Shown here in pieces: positions 1,483 to 41,228 of a DNA stretch of 64,000 nt. The translations under genes and the position numbers were made by a program. Source of the stretch: an uncultured Candidatus Saccharibacteria bacterium (lineage in GTDB: Bacteria; Patescibacteriota; Minisyncoccia; Phycocordibacterales; WO2-35-19); assembly GCA_964630525.1 (NCBI GenBank), contig CAZVUY010000002.1:99693-163692 (forward strand). Reading direction: 5' to 3'. Position 1 is the stretch's first letter. Every line of letters starts with the position of its first letter. The notes beneath the pieces were generated by a model. That model worked only from the letters and a program-made list of their open reading frames with translations. It made no database searches and was not told the origin of the DNA.

Positions 1483-1485
1483 GTT

Positions 1486-3054: not shown

Positions 3055-3124
3055 TATTCACCTACATTGGTGACGGATATTCACTGTAAATATATAAATT
3101 ATAAAAATATAAAAAATAAATAAT

Positions 3125-10867: not shown

Positions 10868-11908
10868 TTGCTTGTAGTATTTAAGCAAATGGCATTTTTC
10901 TCTAAAAAACTAGGTATTGATTTGGGGACGGCGAATATTTTGGTTTTTGTGCCTGGCAAGGGGGTGGTATTAAACGAACCTTCGGTGGTCGCGATTGGTG
11001 TTGAAAATAATCGGATTTTGGCGGTCGGAGCGGATGCTAAGGTGATGATCGGCCGTACCCCAGAGGCCATCATTGCCTATCGTCCAATGAAAGATGGTGT
11101 GATTGCTGATTATAGAGTGACAGAAGCGATGCTACGTTATTATATCCGAAAGGCGATGGGTAGCTGGAATTTTATCAAACCGGAGGTGTTAATATCGGTA
11201 CCGGCTGGTGTGACTTCAACCGAAAGAAGAGCGGTGATCGAGGCGGCTATCAAAGCGGGTGCCAAGAGCGCGTATGTTATCAAGGAGCCAATCTTAGCAG
11301 CGATCGGCGCTGGTATTCCGATCTATGAAGCTAAGGGTCATATGATCACTGATATTGGCGGTGGTACTACTGACGTAGCAGTGATTTCGCTCGGTGGCAT
11401 TGTTGCTTCTACTTCGGTCAAGTGCGCTGGCAACCGGATCGATGAAAGTATTGCTGATTATGTAAAAAAGAATTTTAACCTAGCGATTGGCGACAAAATG
11501 GCCGAAGATATCAAAATCAATATTGGTTCAGCACTGCCTCTTGAAGAAGAGTTGCGGATGGATATAAAAGGGCGTGATCTGGTGACTGGTTTACCGCGTT
11601 CGATCGAAGTGCGCACCAATGAAATTGTGAAAGCTATCTCCAAAGAGTTGAGAGAAATGATCAAGGCTATTAAAGATGTTTTGCAAGAGACACCACCCGA
11701 ACTTGCTGCTGATATTATCGACAATGGCATCATTATGACCGGGGGCACTTCTTCTTTGCGCAATTTTCCTGAATTGGTATTGGCTAAGGTTGGTGTCAAA
11801 GCCACTTTAGCCAAAGATCCGCTTTTTTGTGTCGCTCGGGGCACCGGAGTCGCGCTTGATTACCTCGGTACTTATAAGAAGACCATTATTTCAAAAAGAC
11901 AGTCATGA
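10868..11908 (+). CDS. mreB: rod-shape determining protein MreB
   Basis: GIDLGTANILVFV...NEPSVVAI actin-fold motifs; likely start at internal MAFFSKK. Confidence 0.9.
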   Translation: MLVVFKQMAFFSKKLGIDLGTANILVFVPGKGVVLNEPSVVAIGVENNRILAVGADAKVMIGRTPEAIIAYRPMKDGVIADYRVTEAMLRYYIRKAMGSWNFIKPEVLISVPAGVTSTERRAVIEAAIKAGAKSAYVIKEPILAAIGAGIPIYEAKGHMITDIGGGTTDVAVISLGGIVASTSVKCAGNRIDESIADYVKKNFNLAIGDKMAEDIKINIGSALPLEEELRMDIKGRDLVTGLPRSIEVRTNEIVKAISKELREMIKAIKDVLQETPPELAADIIDNGIIMTGGTSSLRNFPELVLAKVGVKATLAKDPLFCVARGTGVALDYLGTYKKTIISKRQS

Positions 11909-15646: not shown

Positions 15647-16717
15647 ATGTTTAGAGAAAAGATGGAGCAATGGTGGCGCATGATGCGCAATGACATTGGT
15701 ATTGATCTTGGTACCGCGAACGTACTGGTCTATGTGCGTGGCAAAGGGGTTATACTCAACGAACCCTCGGTTGTCGCTGTAAATCAAAAGACCGGTCAGA
15801 TCGTGGCAGTTGGTCGGGAAGCCAAAAATATGCTAGGTCGCACTCCGCCGCATATCATAGCTGTCCGACCAATTGTTGGAGGAGTAATTTCTGATTTTGA
15901 GGTGACGGAAGAGATGATTAGCTATCTTTTAAAGAAAGCTCAGGCAGTTTCCAAAAAGTTTTTTGGTCCGAGAGTGGTGGTGGGTGTGCCATCACATATC
16001 ACCAATGTGGAAACAAGGGCGGTGAGAGATGCGACCCGCAATGCGGGAGCCAGTGAAGTCCATATTGTCGAAGAGCCGATGGCTGCAGCTATTGGAATGC
16101 ACTTACCAATCAACGAACCAGTTGGTAACATGGTGATCGATATTGGTGGCGGTACAGCTGATATAGCAGTTATTTCTTTGGGTGGTGTGGTGAGTTCTAA
16201 AAATGTCAGGATCGCTGGCGATAAATTAAATAACGATATAACTTCTTACATTAGGAGTGAATTTAAGATAGTGATTGGCGAGAAAACAGCTGAGAGTATC
16301 AAGACTACAATCTGTTGCCTTTTACCCGAAGAAAATCCGCTCGAAACTAAGGCGCGAGGCAGAGATCTAATCACTGGTTTGCCACGGGAAGTGGTAGTCA
16401 CCGATGCTGATATTAGGAATGCTGTTTCCAATTCGATCGAAAGACTCGTCGAAGCCACCAAAGAAGTTTTGGAATTAACCCCACCGGAAATATTGTCAGA
16501 TATCATGCATCGAGGTATTCACTTGGCGGGTGGCGGCGCTTTGATTAGGGGGTTTGCCGAGGTGCTCCAAGAAGAGGTAAAGATTCCGGTCTATATAGCC
16601 GATGACCCACTTTCTTGTGTGGTGAGGGGTACTGGTATGATCCTTGAGAAGTTAGATAAATTTAAAGACATATTGGTAGCTGACGAAGATGATATATCAA
16701 CTAAAGCATACGAATAG
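15647..16717 (+). CDS. mreB: second MreB paralog
   Basis: IGIDLGTANVLVYVRGKGVILNEPSVVAV; followed by mreC. Confidence 0.9.
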   Translation: MFREKMEQWWRMMRNDIGIDLGTANVLVYVRGKGVILNEPSVVAVNQKTGQIVAVGREAKNMLGRTPPHIIAVRPIVGGVISDFEVTEEMISYLLKKAQAVSKKFFGPRVVVGVPSHITNVETRAVRDATRNAGASEVHIVEEPMAAAIGMHLPINEPVGNMVIDIGGGTADIAVISLGGVVSSKNVRIAGDKLNNDITSYIRSEFKIVIGEKTAESIKTTICCLLPEENPLETKARGRDLITGLPREVVVTDADIRNAVSNSIERLVEATKEVLELTPPEILSDIMHRGIHLAGGGALIRGFAEVLQEEVKIPVYIADDPLSCVVRGTGMILEKLDKFKDILVADEDDISTKAYE

Positions 16718-22147: not shown

Positions 22148-23740
22148 GTGAGGTTAGATATCGAAAAGTCCCTACAAAGAGGCGAACATTGGAGTGAGGT
22201 GACAGCGAGGGAAGTCAAAGCTGTTTTTGGTGATGCTACTCTTTTTACTACCGCCGCCGGTATTAGCCCATCAGGAGTGGTGCATTTTGGCAATTTTAGA
22301 GACGTGATCACTTCTTATGCCACCCACCTCAAATTGAAAGAACAAGGTTTAAAGACCAAGATGATTTTCTCTTGGGACAACTTCGATCGTTTTCGCAAAG
22401 TACCAGTCAATATTCCGGAGGATTTCAAACAATATATCGGACTTCCTTTGAGCGCCGTACCGTCTCCTGTAGATGGTTTTTCTTCCTATGCCGAATATTT
22501 TCAAAAGCCGTTTGAGGAAGCGATGAAAGAGCTCGGCATAGATCTTGAATATCGTTATCAAACAGAAGAATACAAAAGTGGGCAGTATGATGAGTTTATT
22601 TTTCAGGCATTGAAACGTCGCCAAGACATTGCCAAGATCTTGCTTTCATTTATGACCGAGAAGGGTAAAGTCGAAGCGGGTATCGTCGAATCTGAATACA
22701 TCGAAAATTATTACCCGATCTCTGTTTACTCGAGGTTTACTGGCAAAGATGCGACCAAGGTGCTTTCATACGATGGCGAAAGATCGATCACTTACTATTG
22801 TGCGGAAACCAAAAATACTGAGACTGTTGATTTAGGCAAGGACAGGATCGCCAAATTGGCGTGGAAGGTGGATTGGCCGATGCGCTGGAAAGTAGAAAAT
22901 GTCGTCTTCGAGCCGGGTGGCCATGACCATGCTTCGCCCGGAGGCAGCTTCGATGTTTCGAGTGTTATCGCCAAAGAGATTTTCGGTATTACCGAGCCGG
23001 TGTTTGTCGAATACAAATTTGTCGGTATCCAGGGTGGTGGTACCAAAATGTCTGGTTCTAAAGGCAATGCGATCTCGCCCCAACAACTCTTGGAAATTTA
23101 CGAACCGGCGCTTTTGAAATGGCTATATTTGCGCAAAAATCCGAGCCAACCATTTAGTTTGGCTTTCGATACCGAAATCTATCGCCAGTACGACGAATTT
23201 GATCGAGCTTTGCAAGCAAACTCTGGTGAAGTCGCTTTGAAACTGAGTGGTGCAACCAAGCTTGAAAACCCGATCCCTTTTAAACAAGCGGTCTCGCTCG
23301 GGCAAATCACCCAATGGAATGAAGAGAAAGTTTTGAATTTGCTTGCTGATCTGAAAGCTGACTACGATCCGCTCTCGGTCAAAAATAGATTGCCCAAAGC
23401 CAAAAACTGGCTCAATGAATACAACCAAGAAGAAATGATCGGTCTCTTGAGAGAGGTCAATGTAGCCTATGTGACTACCATGAGCGAAGCGTCAAAACAG
23501 CAGGTGTGGAAGTTGAAGGAAGAGTTGGCCAAAGAATATTCTTCGATTGAGGAGTTGGAACATCTTGTTTACTCGATTCCAAAAGATAATACGAAAACTG
23601 ACAAAGAAAATGCGCCAGCCCAAAAAGAATTTTTCCGTCATGTCTACAACCTTTTGATCGGCAAAGACGCCGGTCCCCGCCTCTCCACCTTCCTCTGGGC
23701 CGTCGATCGAGATCTTGTGCTTAAATTGTTGAATATATAA
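22148..23740 (+). CDS. lysS: class I lysyl-tRNA synthetase
   Basis: HFGN (HIGH-like) and KMSGSKGN (KMSKS) motifs in about 530 aa, the class I LysRS pattern. Confidence 0.85.
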   Translation: MRLDIEKSLQRGEHWSEVTAREVKAVFGDATLFTTAAGISPSGVVHFGNFRDVITSYATHLKLKEQGLKTKMIFSWDNFDRFRKVPVNIPEDFKQYIGLPLSAVPSPVDGFSSYAEYFQKPFEEAMKELGIDLEYRYQTEEYKSGQYDEFIFQALKRRQDIAKILLSFMTEKGKVEAGIVESEYIENYYPISVYSRFTGKDATKVLSYDGERSITYYCAETKNTETVDLGKDRIAKLAWKVDWPMRWKVENVVFEPGGHDHASPGGSFDVSSVIAKEIFGITEPVFVEYKFVGIQGGGTKMSGSKGNAISPQQLLEIYEPALLKWLYLRKNPSQPFSLAFDTEIYRQYDEFDRALQANSGEVALKLSGATKLENPIPFKQAVSLGQITQWNEEKVLNLLADLKADYDPLSVKNRLPKAKNWLNEYNQEEMIGLLREVNVAYVTTMSEASKQQVWKLKEELAKEYSSIEELEHLVYSIPKDNTKTDKENAPAQKEFFRHVYNLLIGKDAGPRLSTFLWAVDRDLVLKLLNI

Positions 23741-28528: not shown

Positions 28529-28738
28529 ATGATTTCGCAAAATCATATGCAAAAAGCAGCACATTGGCTCCTAGTGATCGGCGGTCTAAACTGGCTTCTA
28601 GTGGGCCTTTTGAGTTGGGATGTAGGGCAATTGTTTGGTGGCCAAGAGGCTATGATCTCAAGAGTGGTTTACATTCTTGTTGGTCTTTCCGCTTTGGTTT
28701 CTCTTAAACCAAAATCTTCTTCCATGCCTCAGATGTAA
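28529..28738 (+). CDS. DUF378-family small membrane protein
   Basis: VIGGLNWLLVGL motif characteristic of DUF378. Confidence 0.6.
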   Translation: MISQNHMQKAAHWLLVIGGLNWLLVGLLSWDVGQLFGGQEAMISRVVYILVGLSALVSLKPKSSSMPQM

Positions 28739-28759
28739 CCAATTTTTTTGAAAATTTTG

Positions 28760-28795
28760 AAAACCGCTCCAATTTTTTGGGGCGGTTTTCTTTTT
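28760..28795 (+). terminator. terminator after the DUF378 gene
   Basis: AAAACCGCTCC...GGGGCGGTTTTC hairpin followed by a T-run. Confidence 0.5.
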
Positions 28796-28821
28796 CCCCT
28801 CTCCTAGATCTAGGAGAGGGG
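28796..28821. repeat. perfect 26-bp palindrome CCCCTCTCCTAGATCTAGGAGAGGGG about 25 nt upstream of the VirD4-like gene
   Basis: Read directly from the sequence; same CCCCTCTCC...GGAGAGGGG arms as the hairpin inside uvrB at 40408-40432. Confidence 0.8.
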
Positions 28822-28846
28822 CTAGGAGTGAGGTATAATAATATTT

Positions 28847-31594
28847 ATGGAGCACAAATTTTCTTCACCAGTATCGCCCTTCAAAAATTCTGAAGAAGAA
28901 ATTGCGCATTTGCGCCAGCTCATATCTGAGAAGGAACGAGCCTTAGAAAATATAGGTTTAAAAAGGGAGGATCTGGTTGAGGCACGAGAGACACTAGCCC
29001 AATACAAAACTGCCAAACACGCAGAAGTCTTACACCCTTCTTTTACACTCAATGAAGCCACTGTTGGAGAGCTGGCTCTCAAGTTGGCACCCGAAGAGCA
29101 TGATACTCAGATCGCTGAACTCATGAAATTAGTCAAAGAGAAAGGGATCAAGAATGCTCTTTCGGTTGTTGAGAAATTGGCTGATTTTCATATCACCGAC
29201 GACTTTCATCGCTTTGTCGCCGAATATTTAAAGGAAGGGTTTACCATCCCTGGTTTGGTAGAAAAAGAGGCAATAGCCAAGGGTTTGTCGATGGTGTTGT
29301 ATGAAGTTTTGATCCCAGAAGAGGTTGGCAGGGAAGAGACAAAAAGTTTGTCGGATATCATCGCCGGGATGGAGCAGTTTTATGCCAGCATGCTCTCACT
29401 TTCACCTGATGGCAAGAGTGCCGACAGTTGGATGTCGCTTGAGATCGCGAATGCTAATTTTTCTCAGGAAATTGTTTTTTATGTAGCCGTGCCAACTTCT
29501 CGCAGAAGCCTTTTTGAAAAATCGATCATTTCAATTTTCCATAACGTCAAGATTAGAGAAATGCCCGATGATTACAATATTTTCAACAAAACCGGTTTTA
29601 CCGCCGGCGCTTATGCTGCTTTTGCCAAAAAACCGATTTACCCGATCAAGACTTATGAAAATTTTGTCCATGATCCGCTCAACCTGATCCTCTCCAGTTT
29701 TTCCAAAGTCAATCGTGACGGAGAGGGAGCCGCGATTCAGCTTATTTGGTCGCCGATGGGAGATCGTTATTTGAAAAAATACAAAGAAGCACTTGAAAAA
29801 ATAAAAAAAGGAACACCTTTAAAAGAAGCTATCGATATCCCAGACAGTATCGGCGGTGAATTTGTCCACACTTTTAGAGATCTCTTTTCTTCCAAGCCAA
29901 CCAAGAAAGAAGGTGAGCCGGAAAAGCCGGAAATCATTGATCAGGCGGCGCTTGAAGAAATCGGCAAAAAGATAGCGGCGCCAATAATCAAATGCAATTT
30001 GCGTTTGCTCGCTTCTGCTCACACCAAAGAGGAAGCTGAGGAGATCCTCGATAGTCTGAAAGCGAGTTTCAATCAGTTTACCAACACGCTGGGCAATAGT
30101 TTCGAATGGAAGAAAACGGAAAAGGGCGCTTTGCGGTCGCTGGTGCGCAACTTTGTCTTTCGTCTTTTTGAAGATGCTTCGGCTCTGCCAATGAATCTCA
30201 AGGAGCTTAACTCTGTTATTCATTTTCATACCAAAGCCCTCAGTGCTTCTGAGGGTTTGCGCCAATCACGCTCGGCCACCGCTCAGGCACCACTCGATAT
30301 TAGTAGAGAAGGGTTGTTGTTGGGAGTGAACAAGCACCGCAACATAGAGACCGAAGTCAGGGTGTCGGAAGATGATCGGTTGAGACACTTCTACTGCATT
30401 GGGCAGACCGGTACCGGCAAATCAACTCTGCTGAAAGAAATGATCATTCAGGATATAAAGATGGGTAATGGGGTTTGTATGATCGATCCACATGGTAGCG
30501 ATGTGCAAGATGTGCTCGCCAATATTCCAAGTGAGCGGTATGAAGACCTGATCTATTTTGATCCTGGCTTCACTGCTCGACCGATGGCACTCAACATGCT
30601 CGAGTATGACCCAAACTTCCCAGAGCAAAAAACTTTTGTGGTCAATGAACTTTTCAATATTTTCCGCAAACTCTATGGCAATGTGCCGGAATCGATGGGA
30701 CCGGCCTTTGAACAATATTTCAGAAACTCGGCTCTCTTGGTAATGGAAGACCCCGCTTCCGGCAATACTCTAGTGGATATGTCGCGTGTCCTTTCTGACA
30801 AAGCATATCGCGATCTCAAACTTTCTCGTTGTAAAAACCCGCTGGTCAAGCAGTTCTGGATCAATGCCGAGAAGACGACCGGGGAGCAAGGTTTGGCCAA
30901 CTATGTGCAGTATGTCACTAACAAGTTTGATGTTTTCTTGGCCAACGAGATTATGCGGCCGATCGTCGCTCAAGAAAAATCCTCTTTCAACTTCAGAGAC
31001 ATTATGGATGGTAAAAAAATTCTTTTGGTCAATTTGGCCAAAGGTCGACTCGGCGATCTCAATGCCAACCTTATAGGCTTGATCCTAGTGGGCAAAATAC
31101 TGATGGCGGCGCTCTCCCGGGTAGATATGTTTGGTAAAGATTTTCCACCCTTTTATCTCTACATAGATGAATTTCAAAATATTACAACTGACTCAATTGC
31201 TACCATTCTTTCAGAAGCGAGAAAATACAAGCTCTCGCTGAATATTGCTCACCAGTTTATCGCTCAGCTTGAAGAAAATATCAGAGATGCTGTTTTTGGT
31301 AACGTTGGCTCACTTTGCTCTTTTAGGGTGGGGGCCGAGGATGCTGAATATTTGGAAAAGCAATTCACTCCGACTTTCGTAGCTTCCGATCTGATGAATA
31401 TCGACAATCGCAATGCCTATTTGCGGCTTTTGGTAAATGGTAAGCCCGCTAAACCTTTCAATATTGCCGTCTTGCCACCGCCAGTAGGCAACCTAGAACA
31501 GGTAGAAAATCTGAAACAACTTTCTTATGTCAGCTTCGGGCGACCTCGAGAAGAAGTGGAAAAAATGGTTTTAGAGAAATATAAAATAACTTAA
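28847..31594 (+). CDS. VirD4/TraD/TrwB-family coupling-protein-like ATPase with a ~480-aa soluble N-terminal domain of unknown function
   Basis: Walker A GQTGTGKST, IDPHG (TrwB IDPKG-like), Walker B YLYIDEF, and IAHQFIAQL of the TraG-D_C type; no N-terminal TM helices. Confidence 0.65.
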   Translation: MEHKFSSPVSPFKNSEEEIAHLRQLISEKERALENIGLKREDLVEARETLAQYKTAKHAEVLHPSFTLNEATVGELALKLAPEEHDTQIAELMKLVKEKGIKNALSVVEKLADFHITDDFHRFVAEYLKEGFTIPGLVEKEAIAKGLSMVLYEVLIPEEVGREETKSLSDIIAGMEQFYASMLSLSPDGKSADSWMSLEIANANFSQEIVFYVAVPTSRRSLFEKSIISIFHNVKIREMPDDYNIFNKTGFTAGAYAAFAKKPIYPIKTYENFVHDPLNLILSSFSKVNRDGEGAAIQLIWSPMGDRYLKKYKEALEKIKKGTPLKEAIDIPDSIGGEFVHTFRDLFSSKPTKKEGEPEKPEIIDQAALEEIGKKIAAPIIKCNLRLLASAHTKEEAEEILDSLKASFNQFTNTLGNSFEWKKTEKGALRSLVRNFVFRLFEDASALPMNLKELNSVIHFHTKALSASEGLRQSRSATAQAPLDISREGLLLGVNKHRNIETEVRVSEDDRLRHFYCIGQTGTGKSTLLKEMIIQDIKMGNGVCMIDPHGSDVQDVLANIPSERYEDLIYFDPGFTARPMALNMLEYDPNFPEQKTFVVNELFNIFRKLYGNVPESMGPAFEQYFRNSALLVMEDPASGNTLVDMSRVLSDKAYRDLKLSRCKNPLVKQFWINAEKTTGEQGLANYVQYVTNKFDVFLANEIMRPIVAQEKSSFNFRDIMDGKKILLVNLAKGRLGDLNANLIGLILVGKILMAALSRVDMFGKDFPPFYLYIDEFQNITTDSIATILSEARKYKLSLNIAHQFIAQLEENIRDAVFGNVGSLCSFRVGAEDAEYLEKQFTPTFVASDLMNIDNRNAYLRLLVNGKPAKPFNIAVLPPPVGNLEQVENLKQLSYVSFGRPREEVEKMVLEKYKIT

Positions 31595-31602
31595 AAAAGA
31601 TT

Positions 31603-31629
31603 GCCGTGTCGAGCTTCGCTCGACACGGC
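31603..31629. terminator. 12-bp-stem hairpin GCCGTGTCGAGC-TTC-GCTCGACACGGC
   Basis: Immediately after the VirD4-like stop; U-tract is on the minus-strand side. Confidence 0.4.
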
Positions 31630-31920
31630 GCATCTAATCGTTGAGAGGGCAGATGTCCTCATGTGCCTCCCGCTGGGCTTCCGCAGCTCCAGAGAGACGC
31701 ATAAGGATTTTTATCCGGATTCTTTTTTTTCTAGAATCCGCCCCCTTTTTTCCAAGTCGCGATAGCTCTTCTTTGTCTCCGCAAGCTAGCGCGACGTCGA
31801 CAGATTCATAACCTGTCATCTTCATCATACTGTCTAATATTATATCACGTATAAAAAATAAAGCAAGGAGCTGTGGATAGCAAAAGGGCGCCTCCTTGCG
31901 GGGCGCCCTAGATTCGACTA

Positions 31921-32424
31921 CTACGGTTGGAGTTCTTTGATGCTCTCCAGCATTTTGTTCCAGTCTGGCTCGGGCGGGTCAGATGCTCTTAGAGCCAAAT
32001 ACCCATAAATCTGGTTTTGGTCAGTATTTTCAAAATGACCAAAACGGTACGCAAGGTCTAGCAGTGTGGCCAACCTTTCCTTGTATTGGTCAGCCAATTC
32101 TTGGGCCGAAGTTGCTTCCGCGATCTTTTTTGGATCGCGGTCGGCGTCAAGACCACGCAAGGTAAACCTTGCGATCGTCTCATTCACTACAATTTCATTC
32201 GCAGTGTTCCTTATCTTTTTCCAAATCACGAGCTCGCGATTTTTGCGAGCTGATGAATCGAGGTCTTTAATTTCCACTGGTTGTCCAAATTCCATCCGGA
32301 ACCGGATCTTTAAAATCTCGTTTTCTTGGGTGTGTGCCAGGTACATCCCAAACCCAAATGCCGAAGATAGCACAACCACCAATCCCACAACCCGCACAAT
32401 CGGGTCTTTTAACAGTTTTTTCAT
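31921..32424 (-). CDS. membrane-anchored hypothetical protein
   Basis: N-terminal TM; hairpin GGGCGCC...GGCGCCC downstream at 31873-31900. Confidence 0.4.
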   Translation of the reverse strand: MKKLLKDPIVRVVGLVVVLSSAFGFGMYLAHTQENEILKIRFRMEFGQPVEIKDLDSSARKNRELVIWKKIRNTANEIVVNETIARFTLRGLDADRDPKKIAEATSAQELADQYKERLATLLDLAYRFGHFENTDQNQIYGYLALRASDPPEPDWNKMLESIKELQP

Positions 32425-32514
32425 GCGAACCTCCTTTTTGTTTATAACATCTAAAATAGTTTTTGTAAAATTTGGATAGAAGCTGATTTTGGTGTATATT
32501 TAAAGTGTGTTTGG

Positions 32515-32590
32515 GGGCCATTAGCTCATTTGGTAGAGCGCGCCCATGGCATGGGCGAGGTGAGCGGTTCGATCCCGCTATGGTCCACCA
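32515..32590 (+). tRNA. tRNA-Ala (anticodon GGC) with encoded CCA
   Basis: Manually folded: acceptor GGGCCAT/ATGGTCC with G3:U70, anticodon loop ATGGCAT, T-loop TTCGATC, discriminator A. Confidence 0.85.
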
Positions 32591-32807
32591 TACGAAACTT
32601 GTTCGGAATTACTTTTGCTTGTGGATTATTTTTCAAAAGTGCTTTCAGTGAATCAACATGAAAATGGTCGGCGTGTTCGTGCGTGATAAGTACAAAATCT
32701 ATATTTTTTACTTCGCTCTGTTGTGTTGAATAAGTCCCAGGGTCGGTCAAAATTCTGACTCCTTTTTCTTCTATCAATAAGCAACAATGTCCAAATTTTG
32801 TGATTTT
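32591..32807 (-). pseudogene. truncated MBL-fold metallo-hydrolase: N-terminal ~70 aa only; frame reads into the tRNA-Ala antisense
   Basis: MKITKFGHCCLLIEEKG...ITHEHADHFH (HxHxDH) then no further MBL motifs before abutting the tRNA 3' end. Confidence 0.5.
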
Positions 32808-32814
32808 CATAAAA

Positions 32815-33315
32815 TTATTTTTGACTCTCAATAAGTTTAGAAGCAAGTTTTTTAAGTTCTTCGGAGTCGGCCATTGGTCCACTCCCCGAAGAAATCCAAC
32901 CTTCGTATTTATCAAACCAAAATTCTTTTCCGCTTAAAACTTGCTTCCAAACACCTTGCTTTAGGTTTTCTGTTCCGTGAAGCGGAACAAGTTTAATATG
33001 TGCGTGGTCTATACCTGTTCCTTCCATCATCAATCCAACTCGTCCAACATCGTCAAAATAATTTTCTAAAATATTCGCCACTTTTTTGGAGGCAATTATG
33101 AATCTTTGCAAAACATCATCAGGCATTTTCAAGACATCGCTTCCAAAATGTTGCTTTGGAATTACGCAAGTAAAACCCTTGGTGTTCGGGTCAATGGCAA
33201 GCCAAGCCATAAATTCCTCATCTTCCCAGAACTTTCCAGCCGTTTGCATATTGCCCGCGACTATCTCGCAGAAAATACATTTGTTGTCTTTGGTTGTTGC
33301 TTCGTAGTGAGTCAT
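32815..33315 (-). CDS. HIT-family (histidine triad-like) protein
   Basis: IFCEIVAG N-terminus and GIDHAHIKLVP histidine motif (third His replaced by Lys). Confidence 0.75.
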   Translation of the reverse strand: MTHYEATTKDNKCIFCEIVAGNMQTAGKFWEDEEFMAWLAIDPNTKGFTCVIPKQHFGSDVLKMPDDVLQRFIIASKKVANILENYFDDVGRVGLMMEGTGIDHAHIKLVPLHGTENLKQGVWKQVLSGKEFWFDKYEGWISSGSGPMADSEELKKLASKLIESQK

Positions 33316-33317
33316 AA

Positions 33318-34037
33318 CTAGATAATTTTTCGCCAGCGTTTGAACGCCTTTATATCAGTTGCGTTGAGGTCAAACCATTCGCCATTCATTCGTTTTGCGT
33401 CAAATCGCTTATGCCAATATGCCTCAACGCCGCTGGGGTCGTCAGTCTTTATTTCGTGAATCAAGTCAAGATTTTCTGGTAATTGGATTCTAAGCTCATT
33501 TCCTCTCCGAACAGTGTCAAAAGTTTTTCCAATCTTGTAATACTTGCCATGCCTGAAAAGATAAACTGCACCTTCAATTTCTCCAGAGTCACCCTTTTCA
33601 GTTTCAGTTTTTGAGTTTTGTTCAATGATAGCAGTGCAGATTTTTACAATATCTGCGTATCCTTTCTGTTCGGCATATTCCAAAACCTTATTGACTCTCC
33701 CATTTTTATTTCCAAGACGATCAAAACTTCCTGGGCTTGGAAAGTCGGAATCTCTATGTCTTTTCCCAATTAAATCCGCATTGGTCGGGAATCTGCCAAT
33801 TTCCCGCATTAAGACAACTGCGCTTTCCAACAAAAACTCCATATCGTGTGCAGATTGCAAAGTATTCGGCTCAAAACCCGCTTCACGCTGTGCTTCACCA
33901 AAACTTGGCCAAAATTTCAAAATTTCGTATTCATTGATTCCTGTTTCTTTTCCGAATCTTCCACGACCAAGCGGAACGCCACCATTTTCTTTTGCGGTTT
34001 CCTGGATTGCCTTGATTATATCTTGTTTTGTTGCCAT
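33318..34037 (-). CDS. protein with C-terminal T5orf172/MUG113 (GIY-YIG superfamily) domain
   Basis: GAVYLFRHGKYYKIGKT...RRGNEL...LIHEIKTDDP...AYWHKRF...NGEWFDL. Confidence 0.65.
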   Translation of the reverse strand: MATKQDIIKAIQETAKENGGVPLGRGRFGKETGINEYEILKFWPSFGEAQREAGFEPNTLQSAHDMEFLLESAVVLMREIGRFPTNADLIGKRHRDSDFPSPGSFDRLGNKNGRVNKVLEYAEQKGYADIVKICTAIIEQNSKTETEKGDSGEIEGAVYLFRHGKYYKIGKTFDTVRRGNELRIQLPENLDLIHEIKTDDPSGVEAYWHKRFDAKRMNGEWFDLNATDIKAFKRWRKII

Positions 34038-34038
34038 A

Positions 34039-34245
34039 TCATTTCAAAAGCTCATCAACGGAAACATCAAGCGCTTTGGCGAGCTTTTCTAAAACTGCCA
34101 GCGTAACATTGACCTTTCCTCCCTCAATCGCACTCATGTAGCTTCTGTCCATATCTATTGCTCGACAAATGTCGCCCTGCGACATTTTACGGCGAAGCCG
34201 TATGCGCTTGATGTTTTCTCCAAGTTTTTTGGAAATTTGAGCCAT
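34039..34245 (-). CDS. Cro/C1-type (XRE) HTH regulator
   Basis: LGENIKRIRLRRKMSQGDICRAIDMDRSYMSAIEGGKVNVTLAVLEKLAKAL. Confidence 0.8.
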   Translation of the reverse strand: MAQISKKLGENIKRIRLRRKMSQGDICRAIDMDRSYMSAIEGGKVNVTLAVLEKLAKALDVSVDELLK

Positions 34246-34519
34246 ATTTATATTATCACTTTATCAACTATTGCGCCATGCCTCAATATGGAGGTATAAT
34301 CCCATATATGGATTCTCTTTTTGTAGCCGCCGATTTTTTCAAAAAAGAAAGCCGAAGCCCGCGCGGATTCCTCCCCAGACCCCTCCTCCGCGCGGGCGAG
34401 TCCATCGCCCCGCCTCCTTTGCCCCAGAAAAATAGTGGCGGGGCACATCAGGAGTTCCGTTCAAAGAAAGTTCGAGCAAATGCTAGAATAACACCACATG
34501 TTTAATAATAATTAAAAAT

Positions 34520-35047
34520 ATGTCTACCATTTTAAGTTTATATGCAGTAGAAAAGGGGAAGGTTGAAAAAATTATTAAAGATAAAGATGTTAGCGTATTG
34601 GATCAGATGCCTGACGCTGAATCCAAATCTTACCTAAATAAAATTTTTGATCATGAATACGATCGTGATCCAGATACTTACGAACATCCGGAAGGAGGTC
34701 AGTATATCTTTGCTTTTCATGAATTGTGCAAATTGTCAGCTACAAAATCTACGAGTGTTGAGTGTAGTGTAGATGACGAGCAGACTCCCGAATTTTGGCA
34801 TTTCGTTTGGAGTGATTGGGAACCAGAAGATTTTTTGGAATTACCACTTTCACCAGATGGTTTACCGGCGGTGACTTACAAAGGTTCAACCATGTTGCAA
34901 AAATATATAGACCAACTGAAGGGGGTGGAAGCAAATGGTGGTTATGATTCAAGATTTCTTAAGATCGATGATTTGAGAGAAATTATCAGTTTTCTTCAGG
35001 ATTCTACATCAGCGGGTACGGATGTGTTTGTTTTTATATCAGAATAG
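34520..35047 (+). CDS. acidic hypothetical protein; an immunity-protein-like role is speculative
   Basis: 175-aa acidic ORF, divergent from the XRE gene across a GC-rich palindromic spacer. Confidence 0.4.
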   Translation: MSTILSLYAVEKGKVEKIIKDKDVSVLDQMPDAESKSYLNKIFDHEYDRDPDTYEHPEGGQYIFAFHELCKLSATKSTSVECSVDDEQTPEFWHFVWSDWEPEDFLELPLSPDGLPAVTYKGSTMLQKYIDQLKGVEANGGYDSRFLKIDDLREIISFLQDSTSAGTDVFVFISE

Positions 35048-35170
35048 ATTGAGTTTCTCTGTAAAACTAAAAAATTTTGGTGTTGTCGATGGACACGGTA
35101 TGAGGTTGCTTTTTGCTGATTTTAAACTAATAATTAAATTGGCAGTACTTTGATTTTTTAGGAGGAGTAG

Positions 35171-35758
35171 ATGGGTAAACTGTTGCAAATGGATATTAAC
35201 CCGATGCGTCTCTCGGAACAACTTTTTAACCAAGCTCTCGAATGGGAGCCAGTCAACGTCGAACGCGCTGAAAATCTCTATCAAAGAGCAATCAGAGTTT
35301 ACCCCTACAACGTAGGGGCTCTACTCAATTTGGGCACGATTTTTTTTCGCCGTGACGATTTTAACAGGGCGGAGCAACTCTATCGTCAAACTATCGTAAT
35401 TAATCCTAATTACGCTTTAGCTCATTTTAATCTAGCCAATCTTTTGGATAAACGTTGGCGGAAATGGGAGGCGCTAGAGCATTATCGCACGGCAGTTGAG
35501 ATTGACCCAAACTATGCGGATGCACACTACAACCTTGCTAGCACTCTTCACGACGTGGGGCGCCCAATGGAGGCAGCGAAACATTGGCTTGCTTTCTTGC
35601 GCCTCGAACCTTACGGTGATTTTGCCGAAACTGCCAAGAAAAACTTTTCGGCTATTGCTGACAAGCTTACTGTCCAAAAAAACACAAATCCGGAGGTGCC
35701 TCATGATGGAAAGTTTGGCGCGGTGGTTGGAGAAAATGATGGTGGTGATCTCGTGTGA
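35171..35758 (+). CDS. TPR-repeat protein
   Basis: Several 34-aa TPR-like units (e.g. AEQLYRQTIVINPNYALAHFNLANLL; ALEHYRTAVEIDPNYADAHYNLASTL). Confidence 0.7.
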   Translation: MGKLLQMDINPMRLSEQLFNQALEWEPVNVERAENLYQRAIRVYPYNVGALLNLGTIFFRRDDFNRAEQLYRQTIVINPNYALAHFNLANLLDKRWRKWEALEHYRTAVEIDPNYADAHYNLASTLHDVGRPMEAAKHWLAFLRLEPYGDFAETAKKNFSAIADKLTVQKNTNPEVPHDGKFGAVVGENDGGDLV

Positions 35759-36125
35759 ATCTTTCTGGTGGGGTTATGAAAAAACTTGTGGCCAGGGTGA
35801 CTACCCACAACTTTGGGCAGAAATGGTAGGCAAGGAAATCATCCGTAGCCTTACCAAGATGGTTCATTGTGGGGAGCTCACTGATAAGTTTGTGGTTACC
35901 GGTTTTTTGGTTGGTCGGTTGTATCGGGTCAAAGTTTTTTGTGGTGGAAAGGAGGTGATGAGGGTTGATATATCTCATCCAAACCAGTTGTTGCCGATGA
36001 TGGTGAGAGACGGCCAAGTCCTAGGCCAACCTTTTCATTATTGCACAAACCCAAAACAACTCCTGGAATCATCCGAGGAGTTGCTGACTTATATAATTTG
36101 GCCACATACGAAAGTGGCCACTTGA
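35704..36125 (+). CDS. hypothetical protein (start uncertain; overlaps the TPR gene 3' end)
   Basis: ORF 35496-36125 with the most plausible Met at 35704. Confidence 0.25.
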
Positions 36126-36173
36126 GACCGTCAATCAATGGTTGGTTGGCGGTCTTTGTTTTTTGGCTATTAA

Positions 36174-39092: not shown

Positions 39093-41228
39093 ATGAAATT
39101 TGAGCTGAAGGCCAAATTTGATCCTGCCGGAGATCAGCCAAAAGCTATTGAAAAATTGGTGGCTGGTGTGCGAAAGGGCAAAGATCATCAAACACTGCTC
39201 GGGGTGACAGGGAGCGGCAAGACTTTTACTATTGCCAATGTGATAGAGAAGATCAATAAGCCGACTTTGGTCATTGCCCACAACAAAACCTTGGCCGCCC
39301 AACTCACTCAGGAATATCGAGAATTTTTCCCCAACAATGCTGTTCATTATTTTGTTTCTTATTACGATTTCTACCAGCCGGAAGCTTATATGCCGGTCAC
39401 CGATACTTATATAGAAAAAGAGGCAATGATCAATGAGGAGATCGAGCGGTTGCGCCACGCTTCGACCGAAGCTTTGCTCACCCGAAAAGATGTGATCATC
39501 GTGGCCTCTGTTTCTTGTATTTATGGCTTAGGTTCTCCGGAAGAATATGAAAAAGTGAATCTCAAAATCGAAGCGGAAAGCAAGATAAACCGAGCCGAGT
39601 TCTTACGAAAACTGATTTATATCCACTATGAGCGGACCAACGCTGACCTGACGCCCGGTACTTTTCGGGCGATCGGCAATATTATTGAGATCATGCCGGT
39701 CTCTGAAAAACAGGTTTATCGGCTTGAAGTGGTGGGCGACCAGATCAAATCTATCCAACAAATAGATGCTATTTCCAGAAGTATTTTGGCTGAACCGAAA
39801 GCTTTTTATCTTTTTCCGGCCAAGCATTTCATTACCGCCGAAGAAGATGTTAAAAGAGCGCTAAAATCGATCAAGGCTGAGTTGGCAGCACAACTTAAAA
39901 AATTTGAAAAAGAAGGCAAGCTTTTGGAGGCTGATCGACTAAAACGTCGCACTGGCTACGACCTCTCTATGATCAAAGAGGTTGGCTATTGCAACGGTAT
40001 CGAAAATTATTCCAGGCATTTTGATGGTCGCGAGGCGGGCGAACCACCTCACTCTCTGCTCTCTTATTTCCCAAAAGACAAAGATGGTAAGCCGGATTTT
40101 CTCACAGTGATCGATGAATCGCATGTCACCGTCTCTCAAATTGGTGGTATGTACGCCGGCGACGCCTCCAGAAAAGAAACCTTGATCGAGCATGGTTTTC
40201 GCTTGCCAAGCGCCAAAGACAATCGACCACTCAAGTTCCCTGAATTTACCGAACGGATTGGGCAGGTTATCTACACTTCAGCTACTCCGGGCAAATATGA
40301 ACTTGATAAAAGCGGGAAAGAAGGGGTGGCAGAACAAATCATTCGTCCGACAGGACTCTTGGATCCGGAAGTTTTCGTAAGACCGATCAGTCAGACCTCA
40401 CCCCCGACCCCTCTCCTTGGTAAGGAGAGGGGAGAAGTGGTTTTTTCTGATTCCCCCCTTAAGGTAAGGGGGGCTAGAGGGGATATGAATAAAAAAGCAG
40501 GTTACCCAGGCCAGATTCTCGATTTCATCAATGAGGCGGTGAAAGAAGTAAAGAAAGGCAATCGGGTTATTGCTACCACTCTTACCAAAAAGATGGCTGA
40601 GGATCTGTCTGAGTACTTAAAGGAAAAAAAGATTCGAGCTGAATATTTGCATAGTGATATCAAAACTATTGAAAGAATAGAAATTTTGACCAGGCTAAGA
40701 AAAGGGGAGTTTGATGTGTTGGTTGGGGTCAATCTCTTGCGAGAAGGTTTGGACCTGCCAGAAGTTTCTTTTATCGGCATTCTCGATGCAGACAAAGAGG
40801 GTTTTTTGCGAAGCGAAACTTCTTTGATTCAGACGATCGGTCGGGCAGCCCGCAACGTCGAGGGGCGAGTCATCCTTTATGCCGATCAGCTGACTGGTTC
40901 GATGGAGCGCGCAATCTCAGAAACAAATCGTCGGCGTGCTTTGCAGATCGCTTACAACAAAGCGCACGGTATCACGCCGCAGACCATCAAGAAAGAAATA
41001 AAAGATATCACCGAACAAATGCAACGAGAGCACAAAAAGGCGGTGGGTACGCTCCTTGCGATAGATTTGAAGAAGGGGGGCAAGGACGGACTCTCTGCTA
41101 AACAGGTGGCCAAATTGATCAAGACCAAAGAAAAACAAATGAACGCCGCCGTCAAAATCCTCGATTTCGAATCCGCCGCCATCCTCCGTGATGAGATTAA
41201 GGAATTGGAGAAAATGATCTCGGGCTAG
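39093..41228 (+). CDS. uvrB: excinuclease ABC subunit B with a ~39-aa in-frame insertion
   Basis: GVTGSGKTFTIAN Walker A, beta-hairpin region, C-terminal UvrC-interaction helix; insertion between VRP and QILDF relative to the canonical UvrB core. Confidence 0.9.
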   Translation: MKFELKAKFDPAGDQPKAIEKLVAGVRKGKDHQTLLGVTGSGKTFTIANVIEKINKPTLVIAHNKTLAAQLTQEYREFFPNNAVHYFVSYYDFYQPEAYMPVTDTYIEKEAMINEEIERLRHASTEALLTRKDVIIVASVSCIYGLGSPEEYEKVNLKIEAESKINRAEFLRKLIYIHYERTNADLTPGTFRAIGNIIEIMPVSEKQVYRLEVVGDQIKSIQQIDAISRSILAEPKAFYLFPAKHFITAEEDVKRALKSIKAELAAQLKKFEKEGKLLEADRLKRRTGYDLSMIKEVGYCNGIENYSRHFDGREAGEPPHSLLSYFPKDKDGKPDFLTVIDESHVTVSQIGGMYAGDASRKETLIEHGFRLPSAKDNRPLKFPEFTERIGQVIYTSATPGKYELDKSGKEGVAEQIIRPTGLLDPEVFVRPISQTSPPTPLLGKERGEVVFSDSPLKVRGARGDMNKKAGYPGQILDFINEAVKEVKKGNRVIATTLTKKMAEDLSEYLKEKKIRAEYLHSDIKTIERIEILTRLRKGEFDVLVGVNLLREGLDLPEVSFIGILDADKEGFLRSETSLIQTIGRAARNVEGRVILYADQLTGSMERAISETNRRRALQIAYNKAHGITPQTIKKEIKDITEQMQREHKKAVGTLLAIDLKKGGKDGLSAKQVAKLIKTKEKQMNAAVKILDFESAAILRDEIKELEKMISG
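40408..40473. repeat. two GC-rich perfect hairpins inside the uvrB CDS: CCCCTCTCC-TTGGTAA-GGAGAGGGG (40408-40432) and CCCCCCTTA-AGG-TAAGGGGGG (40453-40473)
   Basis: Read directly from the sequence; they encode the uvrB insertion segment. Confidence 0.8.

What the first reader, a model, noticed from the sequence alone, without database searches (positions are those of the whole stretch)
28760..31640. Orphan VirD4/TraD-like coupling ATPase with a novel N-terminal domain, preceded by a perfect 26-bp palindrome
A 915-aa protein carries the full TrwB/VirD4 C-terminal ATPase signature (Walker A, IDPHG, Walker B, HQ...QL). It lacks the N-terminal membrane anchor and instead has ~480 aa of unrecognised soluble sequence. 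No relaxase or other T4SS genes are nearby. Directly upstream is a perfect palindrome CCCCTCTCCTAGATCTAGGAGAGGGG whose arms recur inside uvrB. It could be a substrate-recruitment or DNA-translocation ATPase working with the pilus machinery, a remnant of a conjugative element, or part of an unrecognised system.
Basis: partly seen in the sequence, partly recalled or inferred. Interest (0 to 1): 0.6.

Follow-up and report, generated by a model that had tools for sequence, protein, structure and literature searches.

The report
Conserved orphan T4SS coupling-type ATPase
This is an intact, very conserved chromosomal gene of an ultra-small Patescibacteria bacterium; it encodes a soluble conjugation-type motor ATPase of a family already catalogued as orphan coupling proteins, its "novel" front half looks like the front half of VirB4, and the palindrome before it is a copy of a scattered hairpin repeat rather than a gene switch.

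Summary
ORF 28847-31594 (+) encodes 915 aa with Walker A, DPHG, Walker B and HQ...QL motifs and no membrane anchor. A perfect 26-bp palindrome lies at 28796-28821.

- **Family already catalogued.** The N-terminal region is Pfam DUF8128. Close orthologues (74% and 59% identical) are listed as T4CP, not near virB4, in a 2025 Patescibacteria T4SS survey.
- **Relatives elsewhere.** The same two-domain architecture occupies the coupling-protein slot, next to a relaxase-type gene and VirB4, on Bacillus and actinomycete plasmids. It also occurs in Bacillus phages.
- **Not a remnant.** The gene is syntenic and as conserved as ribosomal proteins, at 59-82% identity.
- **Palindrome.** It is absent upstream of orthologues at 82% identity or less. 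It belongs to a dispersed hairpin-repeat family, with a second copy in-frame inside uvrB.

Best reading: a soluble coupling-type motor for the chromosomal patescibacterial T4SS encoded elsewhere, substrate unknown. A T4SS-independent role is not excluded. It is a new member of a known kind, of moderate interest.

The parts
28847..31594 (+). Gene for a 915-aa soluble T4CP-family ATPase (DUF8128 + TraG-D_C type), apparently monocistronic
   Evidence: ORF list and translation. Pfam TraG-D_C 25.2 bits (cutoff 22) and DUF87 25.2 bits (cutoff 23.2). There are 1519 homologues, and the top 120 are 59-100% identical and about 915 aa long.
28847..29251 (+). N-terminal helical extension (residues 1-135) with invariant PEEHD (82-86) and H..DDFHR (115-122) motifs. 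It is absent from the short (~800 aa) family members and from the phage and plasmid relatives.
   Evidence: Invariant columns in alignment A1. Helices in the AF2 model. Short-form hits begin at query residue ~140. No PDB sequence match.
29264..30241 (+). DUF8128 domain (residues ~140-465), an alpha/beta domain with a predicted VirB4 N-terminal-domain fold
30299..31591 (+). T4CP-type nucleotide-binding domain (residues ~485-915). Walker A is at nt 30401-30424, a helical insertion resembling the all-alpha domain spans residues 594-700 (nt 30626-30946), and Walker B is at nt 31154-31171.
   Evidence: Motif scan. Secondary structure of the model. Foldseek hits for the ATPase part alone: Cagbeta 2e-6, DotL 2e-5, HerA 3e-5, VirB4 C-terminal domain 1e-3. 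TrwB match at Walker A. conju_CD1115 profile matches residues 491-832.
28796..28833 (.). Copy of a dispersed hairpin repeat: the perfect palindrome 28796-28821 plus a degenerate right outer arm CTAGGAGTGAGG. It is inserted between the upstream terminator and the -10 box.
   Evidence: The same insertion is present in L016 (identical protein) and in L015 (84% orthologue, with one change in the loop). It is absent in L001, L003 and L004.
28759..28790 (+). Intrinsic terminator of the upstream DUF378 gene
   Evidence: Terminator scan, 14-bp stem followed by a T run. RNA fold. Equivalent hairpins occur in L001 and L003.
28834..28839 (+). TATAAT box 7 nt upstream of the ATG, a likely -10 element of a leaderless or near-leaderless transcript (inferred)
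   Evidence: Sequence. The same arrangement is seen in L016, L015, L001 and L003.
31603..31629 (.). 12-bp-stem hairpin 9 nt after the stop codon, terminator-like. The scan scored it on the minus strand.
28547..28738 (+). Upstream DUF378 small membrane protein gene. The start is taken as the ATG conserved in orthologues. It neighbours the ATPase gene in close relatives only.
   Evidence: Pfam DUF378 5e-19. Present in L001, L003 and L016 but not in L004.
40394..40473 (+). Second copy of the repeat family, in-frame inside uvrB: GACCTCACCC, then hairpin 40408-40432, then a second GC-rich hairpin 40453-40473
   Evidence: It lies in a ~40-aa insert of UvrB that differs in L001 and is absent in L011.

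Best explanation
The gene encodes a soluble, three-part ATPase of the VirB4/VirD4 branch of the FtsK-HerA superfamily. The parts are a helical N-terminal extension, a DUF8128 domain with a VirB4 N-terminal-domain fold, and a T4CP-type nucleotide-binding domain with a helical insertion. It is an orthologue of the 'T4CP homologues encoded away from virB4' that are nearly universal in Patescibacteria.

Shown here: the architecture, the motifs, the lack of a membrane anchor, strong purifying selection, chromosomal synteny, and homology over both domains to proteins in the coupling-protein slot of Bacillus and actinomycete conjugative plasmids.

Inferred:
- It forms an ATP-driven ring.
- It reaches the membrane by docking its VirB4-like N-domain onto the inner-membrane platform of the chromosomal, MPF-FATA-derived patescibacterial T4SS encoded elsewhere. 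This would replace the transmembrane anchor of classical T4CPs.
- There it hands over or pumps a substrate. The substrate is not a relaxase-DNA complex, because these genomes generally lack relaxases.

The palindrome is a lineage-specific insertion of a dispersed hairpin repeat between the upstream terminator and the gene's -10 box. It is not a dedicated operator.
For: - **Motifs and no TM segment:**
- **T4CP-type profile hits:** TraG-D_C is above the Pfam cutoff. conju_CD1115 and SXT_TraD are the best NCBIfam hits.
- **Published classification:** orthologues KKP56088.1/KKP81135.1 (74% identical) and KKR53198.1 (59%) are listed as T4CP (profile t4cp1, 86-88% coverage, VirB4 proximity 'No') in Table S3 of PMC12102498. 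One of those genomes, GCA_000990165.1, also lists a VirB1/VirB3/TrsD/VirB4 set, with this protein as the only T4CP shown for that genome in the excerpt I read.
- **Survey figures:** 5,713 T4CP homologues in 2,918 of 3,035 genomes, 148 near virB4, relaxases in 103 genomes.
- **Plasmid relatives:** hhalign Prob 99.7%, E 6e-26, over residues 149-878 to an 885-aa B. subtilis plasmid protein. That protein directly precedes a Replic_Relax gene, TcpC, TcpE and an AAA_10 VirB4. The same order is seen on pBM69 and on an Embleya plasmid.
- **Conservation:** 82/77/72/59% identity to orthologues, equal to or above ribosomal proteins, SecY and UvrB in the same comparisons.
- **Synteny:**
- **Palindrome:**
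Against: - **No physical or genetic link to a T4SS was tested.** The window holds no T4SS gene.
- **Wider distribution than VirB4.** T4CP homologues occur in more genomes (2,918) than VirB4 does (2,417).
- **Non-essential relative.** The T4CP homologue of Southlakia epibionticum is reported as non-essential while other T4SS genes are essential. I did not establish whether that homologue is of the DUF8128 type.
- **Possible paralogue.** Several genomes carry a second t4cp1 hit with fuller profile coverage (98%) that could be the true T4SS partner.
- **Fold evidence rests on a prediction.** The VirB4-like fold depends on an AlphaFold model and on one solved family. A profile comparison with the N-terminal half of a Bacillus plasmid VirB4 found nothing.
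- **Weak curated matches.** All NCBIfam T4CP models and two of three Pfam T4CP models score below their cutoffs.
- **Poorly modelled regions.** The ATPase domain is poorly modelled in places, with pLDDT below 50 at 513-524 and 777-829.
Confidence: 0.5

Rival explanations
1. Exapted, T4SS-independent motor. The ancestral plasmid coupling ATPase was domesticated by Patescibacteria for a housekeeping nucleic-acid transaction, such as taking up or processing host-derived DNA or RNA, or handling the chromosome. It no longer works with VirB proteins.
For: The gene is unlinked from virB4. T4CP homologues are more widespread than VirB4. The Southlakia homologue is non-essential while its T4SS is essential, and the authors themselves raise exaptation. 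Conservation is at ribosomal-protein level. Relatives occur in Bacillus phages that have no complete T4SS. Relaxases are almost absent.
Against: One genome listing an orthologue also lists a full VirB1/VirB3/TrsD/VirB4 set, and two others list only partial sets. The closest non-CPR relatives sit inside T4SS operons. A VirB4-type N-domain is what one would expect for docking on a T4SS platform. No alternative partner gene is conserved next to it.
Confidence: 0.3
2. A functional VirB4 paralogue. The protein would be an assembly or pilus-biogenesis ATPase rather than a substrate-coupling one, as its VirB4-like two-domain layout suggests.
For: The top structural matches of both the full model and the N-domain are TrwK/VirB4. 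It is soluble, as VirB4 is. In phage G the relative gp156 sits beside a VirB4-like gp155.
Against: VirB4 profiles (TIGR00929, AAA_10, P-loop_TraG) do not match beyond the P-loop. The ATPase domain scores better against T4CPs than against the VirB4 C-terminal domain. Plasmid operons with a relative also carry a separate bona fide AAA_10 VirB4 and place the relative next to the relaxase gene. CONJScan calls the orthologues t4cp1, while a different protein of the same genome is called virb4.
Confidence: 0.08
3. Decaying remnant of an integrated conjugative element or prophage.
For: Relatives are found on plasmids and phages. A variable island with a GIY-YIG-like gene and tRNA-Ala lies just downstream.
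Against: The ORF is intact at full length in more than 100 relatives. Identity of 59-82% equals that of core genes. The chromosomal position between the dcw cluster and LOG-FKBP-TGT-UvrB is the same in several genera. GC content is 0.43-0.46, like its surroundings. There are no element genes around it.
Confidence: 0.03
4. The palindrome is an operator or other cis-regulator dedicated to this gene.
For: It abuts the presumed -10 box, is perfectly symmetric, and is retained at the same site in the 84% orthologue with an intact stem.
Against: It is absent from four more distant orthologous promoters. The same core occurs at unrelated places in other Patescibacteria MAGs and inside uvrB. The broader motif occurs in at least 120 metagenome contigs. 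In MAG CAYTTP01 a copy lies downstream of the orthologue, not upstream.
Confidence: 0.07

Closest known systems
Orphan T4CP (VirD4-type) homologues of Patescibacteria, from Quinonero-Coronel et al. 2025 (PMC12102498)
   Same: It is the same family. Orthologues at 74% and 59% identity are listed there as T4CP (profile t4cp1), not near virB4. They are chromosomal, lack a relaxase, and have a T4SS elsewhere in the genome.
   Different: Nothing differs at the level of the gene. In the passages I read, that paper does not describe the DUF8128 domain, its VirB4-like fold, or the plasmid and phage relatives.
TrwB / VirD4 / TraD coupling proteins (PDB 1e9r and relatives)
   Same: Both have a P-loop NTPase with GxTGxGKS, DPxG, Walker B and a TraG-D_C-type segment. 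Both have a helical insertion between Walker A and Walker B. Sequence and fold matches to TrwB, Cagbeta and DotL support this.
   Different: This protein has no N-terminal transmembrane segment. It has an extra ~465-residue soluble N-terminus. It has no adjacent relaxase. It scores below the curated cutoffs of most T4CP models.
VirB4 (TrwK of R388; PDB 7o42, 8rtd)
   Different: Identity is 9-10%. There is no VirB4 profile match beyond the P-loop. The NTPase domain is closer to T4CPs. The gene is not next to VirB3/TrsD. A separate VirB4 exists in related genomes.
Proteins in the coupling-protein slot of Bacillus plasmids (WP_345805471.1 on NZ_CP154917; WP_003349917.1 on pBM69) and of an Embleya plasmid (WP_331738717.1)
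   Same: For the B. subtilis plasmid protein, homology over both the DUF8128 core and the NTPase was shown directly (hhalign Prob 99.7%, residues 149-878). The pBM69 and Embleya proteins matched by tblastn over about residues 370-878. Sizes are similar, at 812-885 aa.
   Different: The plasmid proteins sit inside conjugation operons, directly before a Replic_Relax gene and near TcpC, TcpE/PrgI and VirB4. They lack the 135-residue helical extension. They share only about 22-29% identity with this protein.
Bacillus phage proteins (phrog_5156; phage G gp156; SP-10 gp203)
   Same: They have the same two-domain architecture. phrog_5156 matches at E 1.5e-75 over residues 149-911. hhalign gives Prob 99.8% for phage G gp156 and 98.4% for SP-10 gp203.
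   Different: The context is a phage genome and the function is unknown. They lack the N-terminal extension.
REP / MITE-type small palindromic repeats, and the in-frame Rickettsia palindromic elements (the comparison rests on my own knowledge of those families)
   Same: The palindrome belongs to a short GC-rich hairpin unit that is scattered at unrelated sites. Some copies have outer inverted arms. One copy sits in-frame inside a conserved gene, uvrB.
   Different: No associated transposase, target duplication or copy-number census was established. The motif appears in contigs spanning GC 0.27-0.70, which is unusual for a lineage-bound repeat.

Membership tests
Type IV coupling protein (VirD4/TrwB/TraD) | P-loop NTPase with T4CP-type motifs (Walker A, DPxG, Walker B, TraG-D_C segment) | tested here: met
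   The motifs are at residues 519-526, 547-550, 770-775 and 791-808. Pfam TraG-D_C scores 25.2 bits against a cutoff of 22.
Type IV coupling protein (VirD4/TrwB/TraD) | Score above threshold on curated T4CP models | tested here: inconclusive
   TrwB_AAD_bind scores 17.8 (cutoff 20.5) and T4SS-DNA_transf scores 13.9 (cutoff 20.1). All NCBIfam TraD/TraG/CD1115 models are far below their cutoffs. However, orthologues pass the CONJScan t4cp1 profile at 86-88% coverage in a published table.
Type IV coupling protein (VirD4/TrwB/TraD) | N-terminal transmembrane anchor | tested here: not met
   There is no hydrophobic segment in residues 1-500. The only one is 738-756, inside the NTPase core.
Type IV coupling protein (VirD4/TrwB/TraD) | All-alpha domain inserted in the nucleotide-binding domain | tested here: met
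   Helices at 594-610, 618-634, 641-661 and 665-698 lie between Walker A and Walker B in the AF2 model, at moderate confidence.
Type IV coupling protein (VirD4/TrwB/TraD) | Encoded with a relaxase and/or T4SS genes | tested here: not met
   None was found in the 64-kb window. The feature is met by the plasmid relatives.
Type IV coupling protein (VirD4/TrwB/TraD) | Hexameric ring, nucleic-acid-stimulated ATPase activity, substrate recruitment | not testable with these tools
   This needs biochemistry or a multimer structure.
VirB4 | N-terminal domain of VirB4 fold followed by an NTPase domain | tested here: met
VirB4 | Match to VirB4 sequence models (TIGR00929, AAA_10, CagE_TrbE_VirB, P-loop_TraG) | tested here: not met
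   TIGR00929 gives E 0.023 at the P-loop only, and no Pfam VirB4 family is listed. hhalign against the N-terminal half of a plasmid VirB4 gives Prob 0.1%.
VirB4 | Adjacent to VirB3/TrsD and other channel genes | tested here: not met
   These are absent from the window and from orthologous loci.
Pfam PF26449 (DUF8128) | Match to the family model | tested here: met
   The match is precomputed on P0001 (100% identical to the window protein over its whole length; 916 aa listed against 915 here) and on all 120 listed homologues. The local Pfam copy lacks this model, so I could not rescore it.
FtsK/SpoIIIE or HerA housekeeping translocases | Match to FtsK_SpoIIIE or full-length HerA models | tested here: not met
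   FtsK_SpoIIIE scores 11.6 bits (cutoff 24). The DUF87 hit covers only residues 512-550. helicase_HerA scores 13 bits (cutoff 970).
Gene-specific operator | Conserved upstream of orthologues | tested here: not met
   It is present only in L016 (identical protein) and L015 (84%). It is absent in L001 (82%), L003 (77%) and L004 (59%). In the 72% orthologue's MAG the copy found lies downstream of the gene.
Dispersed palindromic repeat (REP/MITE-like) | Multiple copies at unrelated loci sharing sequence beyond the stem | tested here: met
   Five loci in two other Patescibacteria MAGs carry the exact 20-nt core and share outer arms. There is a second copy in uvrB. At least 120 metagenome contigs carry the motif, and 112 of 124 matches close the hairpin.
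Dispersed palindromic repeat (REP/MITE-like) | Associated transposase (such as a RAYT) or target-site duplication | not tested

The most novel reading that the evidence does not exclude
The near-universal, relaxase-less, soluble T4CP-type ATPase of Patescibacteria could be the cytoplasmic motor that pulls host nucleic acid (RNA or DNA) inward through the T4SS conduit. That would be a coupling protein run in the import direction. It would tie the essential T4SS of these epibionts to the host-RNA feeding recently proposed for a cultivated member (bioRxiv 10.64898/2026.06.21.733656). Its VirB4-like N-domain would be the adaptor that lets a membrane-anchor-less ring dock on the VirB3/VirB4 platform.
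Probability: 0.1. Interest if true: 0.85.

Novelty: new member of a known kind. Interest (0 to 1): 0.35.

Why it matters
Patescibacteria depend on a T4SS for epibiotic growth, yet almost none of them has a relaxase. Nearly all of them keep one or two coupling-type ATPases far from virB4, and their role is an open question raised in the 2025 survey.

This gene is a typical example of the Paceibacteria version.
- **A docking hypothesis to test.** The DUF8128 half is predicted to have the VirB4 N-terminal-domain fold. That suggests how a membrane-anchor-less ring could dock on a T4SS platform.
- **Tractable relatives.** Full-length relatives sit in the coupling-protein slot of small Bacillus conjugative plasmids, where genetics is easy.

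Neither result changes what kind of thing the gene is.

The hairpin repeat is a separate oddity. It recurs in-frame in uvrB and, in a looser form, in contigs of very different GC content.

Tried and rejected
- **PDB by sequence.** Neither the single protein nor the family profile found more than the TrwB P-loop.
- **N-terminal 140 residues.** They gave no PDB sequence hit.
- **Literature on DUF8128.** No paper mentions it.
- **IMG/VR viral contigs.** The scan with the family alignment found no relative.
- **Profile comparison with a plasmid VirB4.** hhalign of the family against the N-terminal half of a Bacillus plasmid VirB4 found nothing. The VirB4 link therefore rests on fold alone.
- **Foldseek library.** afdb50 was not available.
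- **PADLOC.** It gave only weak mad8 and HerA hits confined to the NTPase core. I found no support for a defence-system reading.
- **The palindrome as an RNA.** Rfam found nothing for it or for a complete element copy.
- **Literature by sequence string.** Searching the repeat sequence returned only unrelated eukaryotic papers, and a keyword search on palindromic repeats in Patescibacteria returned nothing specific.
- **FtsK replacement.** I considered this and did not pursue it. At least Saccharibacteria have FtsK in the literature, and the FtsK profile does not match this protein.
- **A pilus link.** I rejected it. PilB and PilC lie 29 kb away, and the orthologous loci show different neighbourhoods with no pilus genes.
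- **A conserved operon partner.** I looked for one and found none. DUF378 precedes the gene only in close relatives, and the 59% orthologue has unrelated neighbours.

Full report
**1. What is at the locus**

ORF 28847..31594 (+) encodes 915 aa. The C-terminal half carries these motifs:
- Walker A, GQTGTGKS, residues 519-526
- DPHG, 547-550
- Walker B, YLYIDE, 770-775
- ARKY, 791-794
- HQFIAQL, 802-808

No N-terminal hydrophobic segment exists. The single hydrophobic 19-mer, residues 738-756, lies inside the NTPase core.

The upstream region, in order:
- the stop codon of a DUF378 gene, at 28736-28738
- its intrinsic terminator, 28759-28790
- the perfect palindrome, 28796-28821
- CTAGGAGTGAGG
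- TATAAT, 28834-28839
- 7 nt, then the ATG

A hairpin at 31603-31629 follows the stop codon, and the next gene is convergent. The gene therefore looks monocistronic.

The window is chromosomal and full of housekeeping genes:
- two MreB paralogues, PBPs, a Mur ligase, GreA and LysRS
- MraZ, MraW and a second PBP (the dcw cluster)
- tRNA-Glu
- the ATPase gene
- a LOG-pterin fusion, FKBP, TGT and UvrB
- the ribosomal protein/SecY block
- RNase Y, ClpP, trigger factor and a Xer-type integrase
- PilB and PilC

I found no relaxase and no VirB-type gene among the ORFs I scanned or matched by synteny. A few ORFs of 100 aa or more were not scanned.

**2. Who has this gene**

The homology search returned 1519 proteins. 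The best 120 are 59-100% identical, and nearly all are full-length at about 910-930 aa. Those with names come from Zambryskibacteria, Paceibacterota or Parcubacteria, that is, Patescibacteria/CPR. All of them carry precomputed PF26449, which is DUF8128.

A search of 1.84 billion cluster representatives with residues 1-480 alone found 965 clusters at E <= 1e-3. These are either full-length forms or a short form of about 800 aa that lacks the first ~140 residues. The short form occurs in Wolfebacteria, for example.

Orthologous loci keep the position between the dcw cluster and LOG-FKBP-TGT-UvrB (L001, L003, L011). A 59% orthologue sits elsewhere, between Map and NDK. No neighbour is conserved throughout.

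Identity to orthologues is 82, 77, 72 and 59%. In the same genome comparisons the other proteins score as follows:
- ribosomal proteins, 45-83%
- SecY, 67%
- UvrB, 76%
- PBPs, 68-69%

This is strong purifying selection. The gene is not a decaying element.

**3. It is already catalogued**

Quinonero-Coronel et al. 2025 (PMC12102498) report 5,713 VirD4-type T4CP homologues in 2,918 of 3,035 Patescibacteria genomes. Only 148 lie near virB4, and relaxases occur in only 103 genomes. The authors note that exaptation cannot be ruled out, because the Southlakia homologue is non-essential.

I obtained accession numbers for cluster members of two homologues and found them in that paper's Table S3. KKP56088.1, KKP81135.1 and KKR53198.1 are each listed as T4CP, profile t4cp1, 86-88% coverage, VirB4 proximity 'No'. 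One of those genomes also lists VirB1, VirB3, TrsD and VirB4. Others list a second t4cp1 hit at 98% coverage.

**4. The 'novel' N-terminal half**

The full-length AF2 model is mediocre (pLDDT 68.6) but good over residues 140-460. A domain-only model of residues 130-482, built from a 50-sequence alignment reaching down to 23% identity, has pLDDT 84.8 and pTM 0.83.

- **Foldseek with the domain model.** The top 11 hits are all TrwK chains, E 1.6e-6 to 2.3e-4.
- **Foldseek with the full model.** It aligns about 760-790 columns with full-length TrwK, ahead of the hits that cover only the ATPase part. Those are Cagbeta, DotL, HerA and the VirB4 C-terminal domain.

DUF8128 therefore has, by prediction, the VirB4 N-terminal-domain fold, and the whole protein has a VirB4-like layout. 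At sequence level the relation is undetectable, with 9-10% identity and a negative hhalign against a plasmid VirB4 N-half. The NTPase half resembles T4CPs more than VirB4.

Residues 1-135 form a helical extension with invariant PEEHD and H..DDFHR motifs and no detectable relative.

**5. Relatives outside Patescibacteria give the functional context**

*Phages.* phrog_5156 (function unknown) matches residues 149-911 at E 1.5e-75. tblastn finds 30 Bacillus phage records. hhalign of the family profile gives Prob 99.8% (E 5e-29, residues 165-893) to phage G gp156, which lies beside the VirB4-like gp155. It gives Prob 98.4% to SP-10 gp203.

*Plasmids.* 287 records match, including 91 from Bacillus and 60 from Streptomyces, plus haloarchaeal and Sulfolobus plasmids. 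An 885-aa 'DUF87 domain-containing protein' on a 27.5-kb B. subtilis plasmid aligns over residues 149-878 (Prob 99.7%, E 6e-26), so it has the same two domains. Its operon reads as follows:
- the relative
- a Replic_Relax protein (PF13814)
- an unnamed gene
- TcpC
- an unnamed gene
- TcpE
- an AAA_10 VirB4 of 847 aa

pBM69 of B. methanolicus has the same order. An Embleya plasmid has PrgI, XF1762, an ATPase, the relative, Replic_Relax and NlpC/P60.

The family thus occupies the coupling-protein slot of monoderm conjugation systems. This agrees with the published MPF-FATA ancestry of the patescibacterial T4SS. None of these relatives reaches a curated NCBIfam cutoff, so the whole clade is poorly characterised.

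**6. Mechanism**

*Shown.* This is a soluble, anchor-less, T4CP-type NTPase with a VirB4-like N-domain. It is under strong constraint, unlinked to any T4SS gene, and homologous to plasmid proteins in the coupling-protein slot.

*Inferred.* It forms a ring ATPase that docks through its N-domain on the T4SS inner-membrane platform. I draw that inference from the fold match and from my own knowledge of the R388 structures, in which the TrwK N-domain contacts VirB3 and VirB8 tails. It then energises transfer of a substrate that is not a relaxase-DNA complex.

I put identity as a T4CP-family ATPase at about 0.9 and the T4SS-coupled role at about 0.5. The main rival, at about 0.3, is a domesticated role independent of the T4SS. 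Its support is the wider distribution than VirB4, the non-essentiality in Southlakia, the phage relatives and the second paralogue.

**7. The palindrome**

It is absent from the equivalent spacer in L001 (82%), L003 (77%) and L004 (59%). Those spacers keep only the terminator hairpin and a TATAAT 6-7 nt before the ATG in L001 and L003. It is present in L016 (identical protein) and in L015 (84% orthologue). In L015 one base has changed in the loop and the stem is intact.

The 20-nt core occurs in five loci of two other Patescibacteria MAGs and in no other group among 185,579 species genomes. My own estimate of the chance expectation is about 0.5 hits for the whole collection. The contexts there are unrelated, and most copies are flanked by AGACCTCACCC ... 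GGGGTGAGGTC. In one of those MAGs a copy lies about 490 nt downstream of the orthologue.

The window has a second copy at 40394-40432, inside uvrB, followed by another GC-rich hairpin. Together they form a ~40-aa in-frame insert. L001 has a different hairpin-rich insert at the same site, and L011 has none.

By my own rough estimate the bare pattern could arise tens of times by chance in a collection of that size. However, 112 of 124 matches are closed by GGAGAGGG, which chance does not explain. The contigs span GC 0.27-0.70. About a quarter of complete units lie within long open frames, against about half for random sites.

The palindrome is therefore a lineage-specific insertion of a dispersed hairpin repeat. 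It may still affect the promoter it abuts, but it is not a conserved operator.

**8. Verdict**

The gene is an ordinary member of a known, Patescibacteria-wide family of orphan T4CP homologues whose function is still open.

The session adds three things: a predicted VirB4-type fold for DUF8128, full-length relatives in the coupling-protein slot of Bacillus and actinomycete plasmids and in Bacillus phages, and a reassignment of the palindrome.

Caveats:
- Taxonomy rests on the names given to homologues.
- The fold evidence rests on predictions.
- The local Pfam copy lacks PF26449.
- No whole genome of this organism was available.

Noticed in passing
window 40390-40500 (inside uvrB, 39093-41228): UvrB carries a ~40-aa in-frame insert between the conserved RPI and GQI motifs, made of two GC-rich hairpins. 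One of them is a variant of the palindrome upstream of the ATPase gene. The orthologue in L001 has a different hairpin-rich insert at the same site, and the one in L011 has none. This resembles in-frame palindromic-element insertions.
   Followed up: partly
metagenome loci L021-L140; window 28796-28833 and 40394-40432: The motif GACCTCACC(C)-N(2-25)-CCCTCTCC-loop-GGAGAGGG is widespread. At least 120 contigs carry it, and 112 of 124 matches close the hairpin. The contigs span GC 0.27-0.70. There is no Rfam family and no paper found. Why a ~35-nt DNA motif is conserved in sequence across such different genomes is unexplained.
   Followed up: partly
window 28834-28849; L016 ~973-989; L015 ~658-674; L001 ~404-420; L003 ~9989-10004: A TATAAT box lies 6-7 nt before the ATG of the ATPase gene in five orthologous loci, with no room for a Shine-Dalgarno sequence. 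This suggests a leaderless mRNA.
   Followed up: partly
window 1-5000: This is a low-GC stretch (0.36-0.37). It holds an HTH/DnaD-like gene (2683-3054) and a large serine recombinase (3125-4855) whose 3' end overlaps tRNA-Asn (4816-4888, minus strand). It is probably an integrated element. An Rfam LOOT RNA hit (53 bits, gathering 46.4) lies at 1528-1639 (-).
   Followed up: no
window 31900-36150: A variable island sits beside tRNA-Ala (32515-32590). It holds a HIT-domain gene, a GIY-YIG-like T5orf172/MUG113 gene (33318-34037, minus strand), DUF7691 and a TPR protein. The syntenic regions of L001 and L003 are much shorter and lack these genes.
   Followed up: no
window 22148-23740 versus L003 4227-5708 and L011 1-508: Lysyl-tRNA synthetase is class I (PF01921) in this genome but class II (tRNA-synt_2) at the same syntenic position in two relatives. 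That is a displacement in situ.
   Followed up: no
window 5955-5994 and 58579-58608: Two other perfect palindromes of 40 bp and 30 bp are present, so perfect palindromes are not special to the ATPase locus.
   Followed up: no
L014 (Bacillus phage G) 2448-6590: Phage G encodes a VirB4-like ATPase (gp155; P-loop_TraG/AAA_10) immediately before the DUF8128-type relative gp156. A phage carrying a pair of T4SS-type ATPases is unexplained.
   Followed up: partly
L011 10419-12086: The TGT orthologue of a related MAG is 555 aa rather than 398 aa, and it carries DUF559/MTES_1575 hits in the middle. This suggests an inserted endonuclease-type domain.
   Followed up: no
window 10868-11908 and 15647-16717: Two MreB paralogues lie within 5 kb of each other in a reduced genome.
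   Followed up: no
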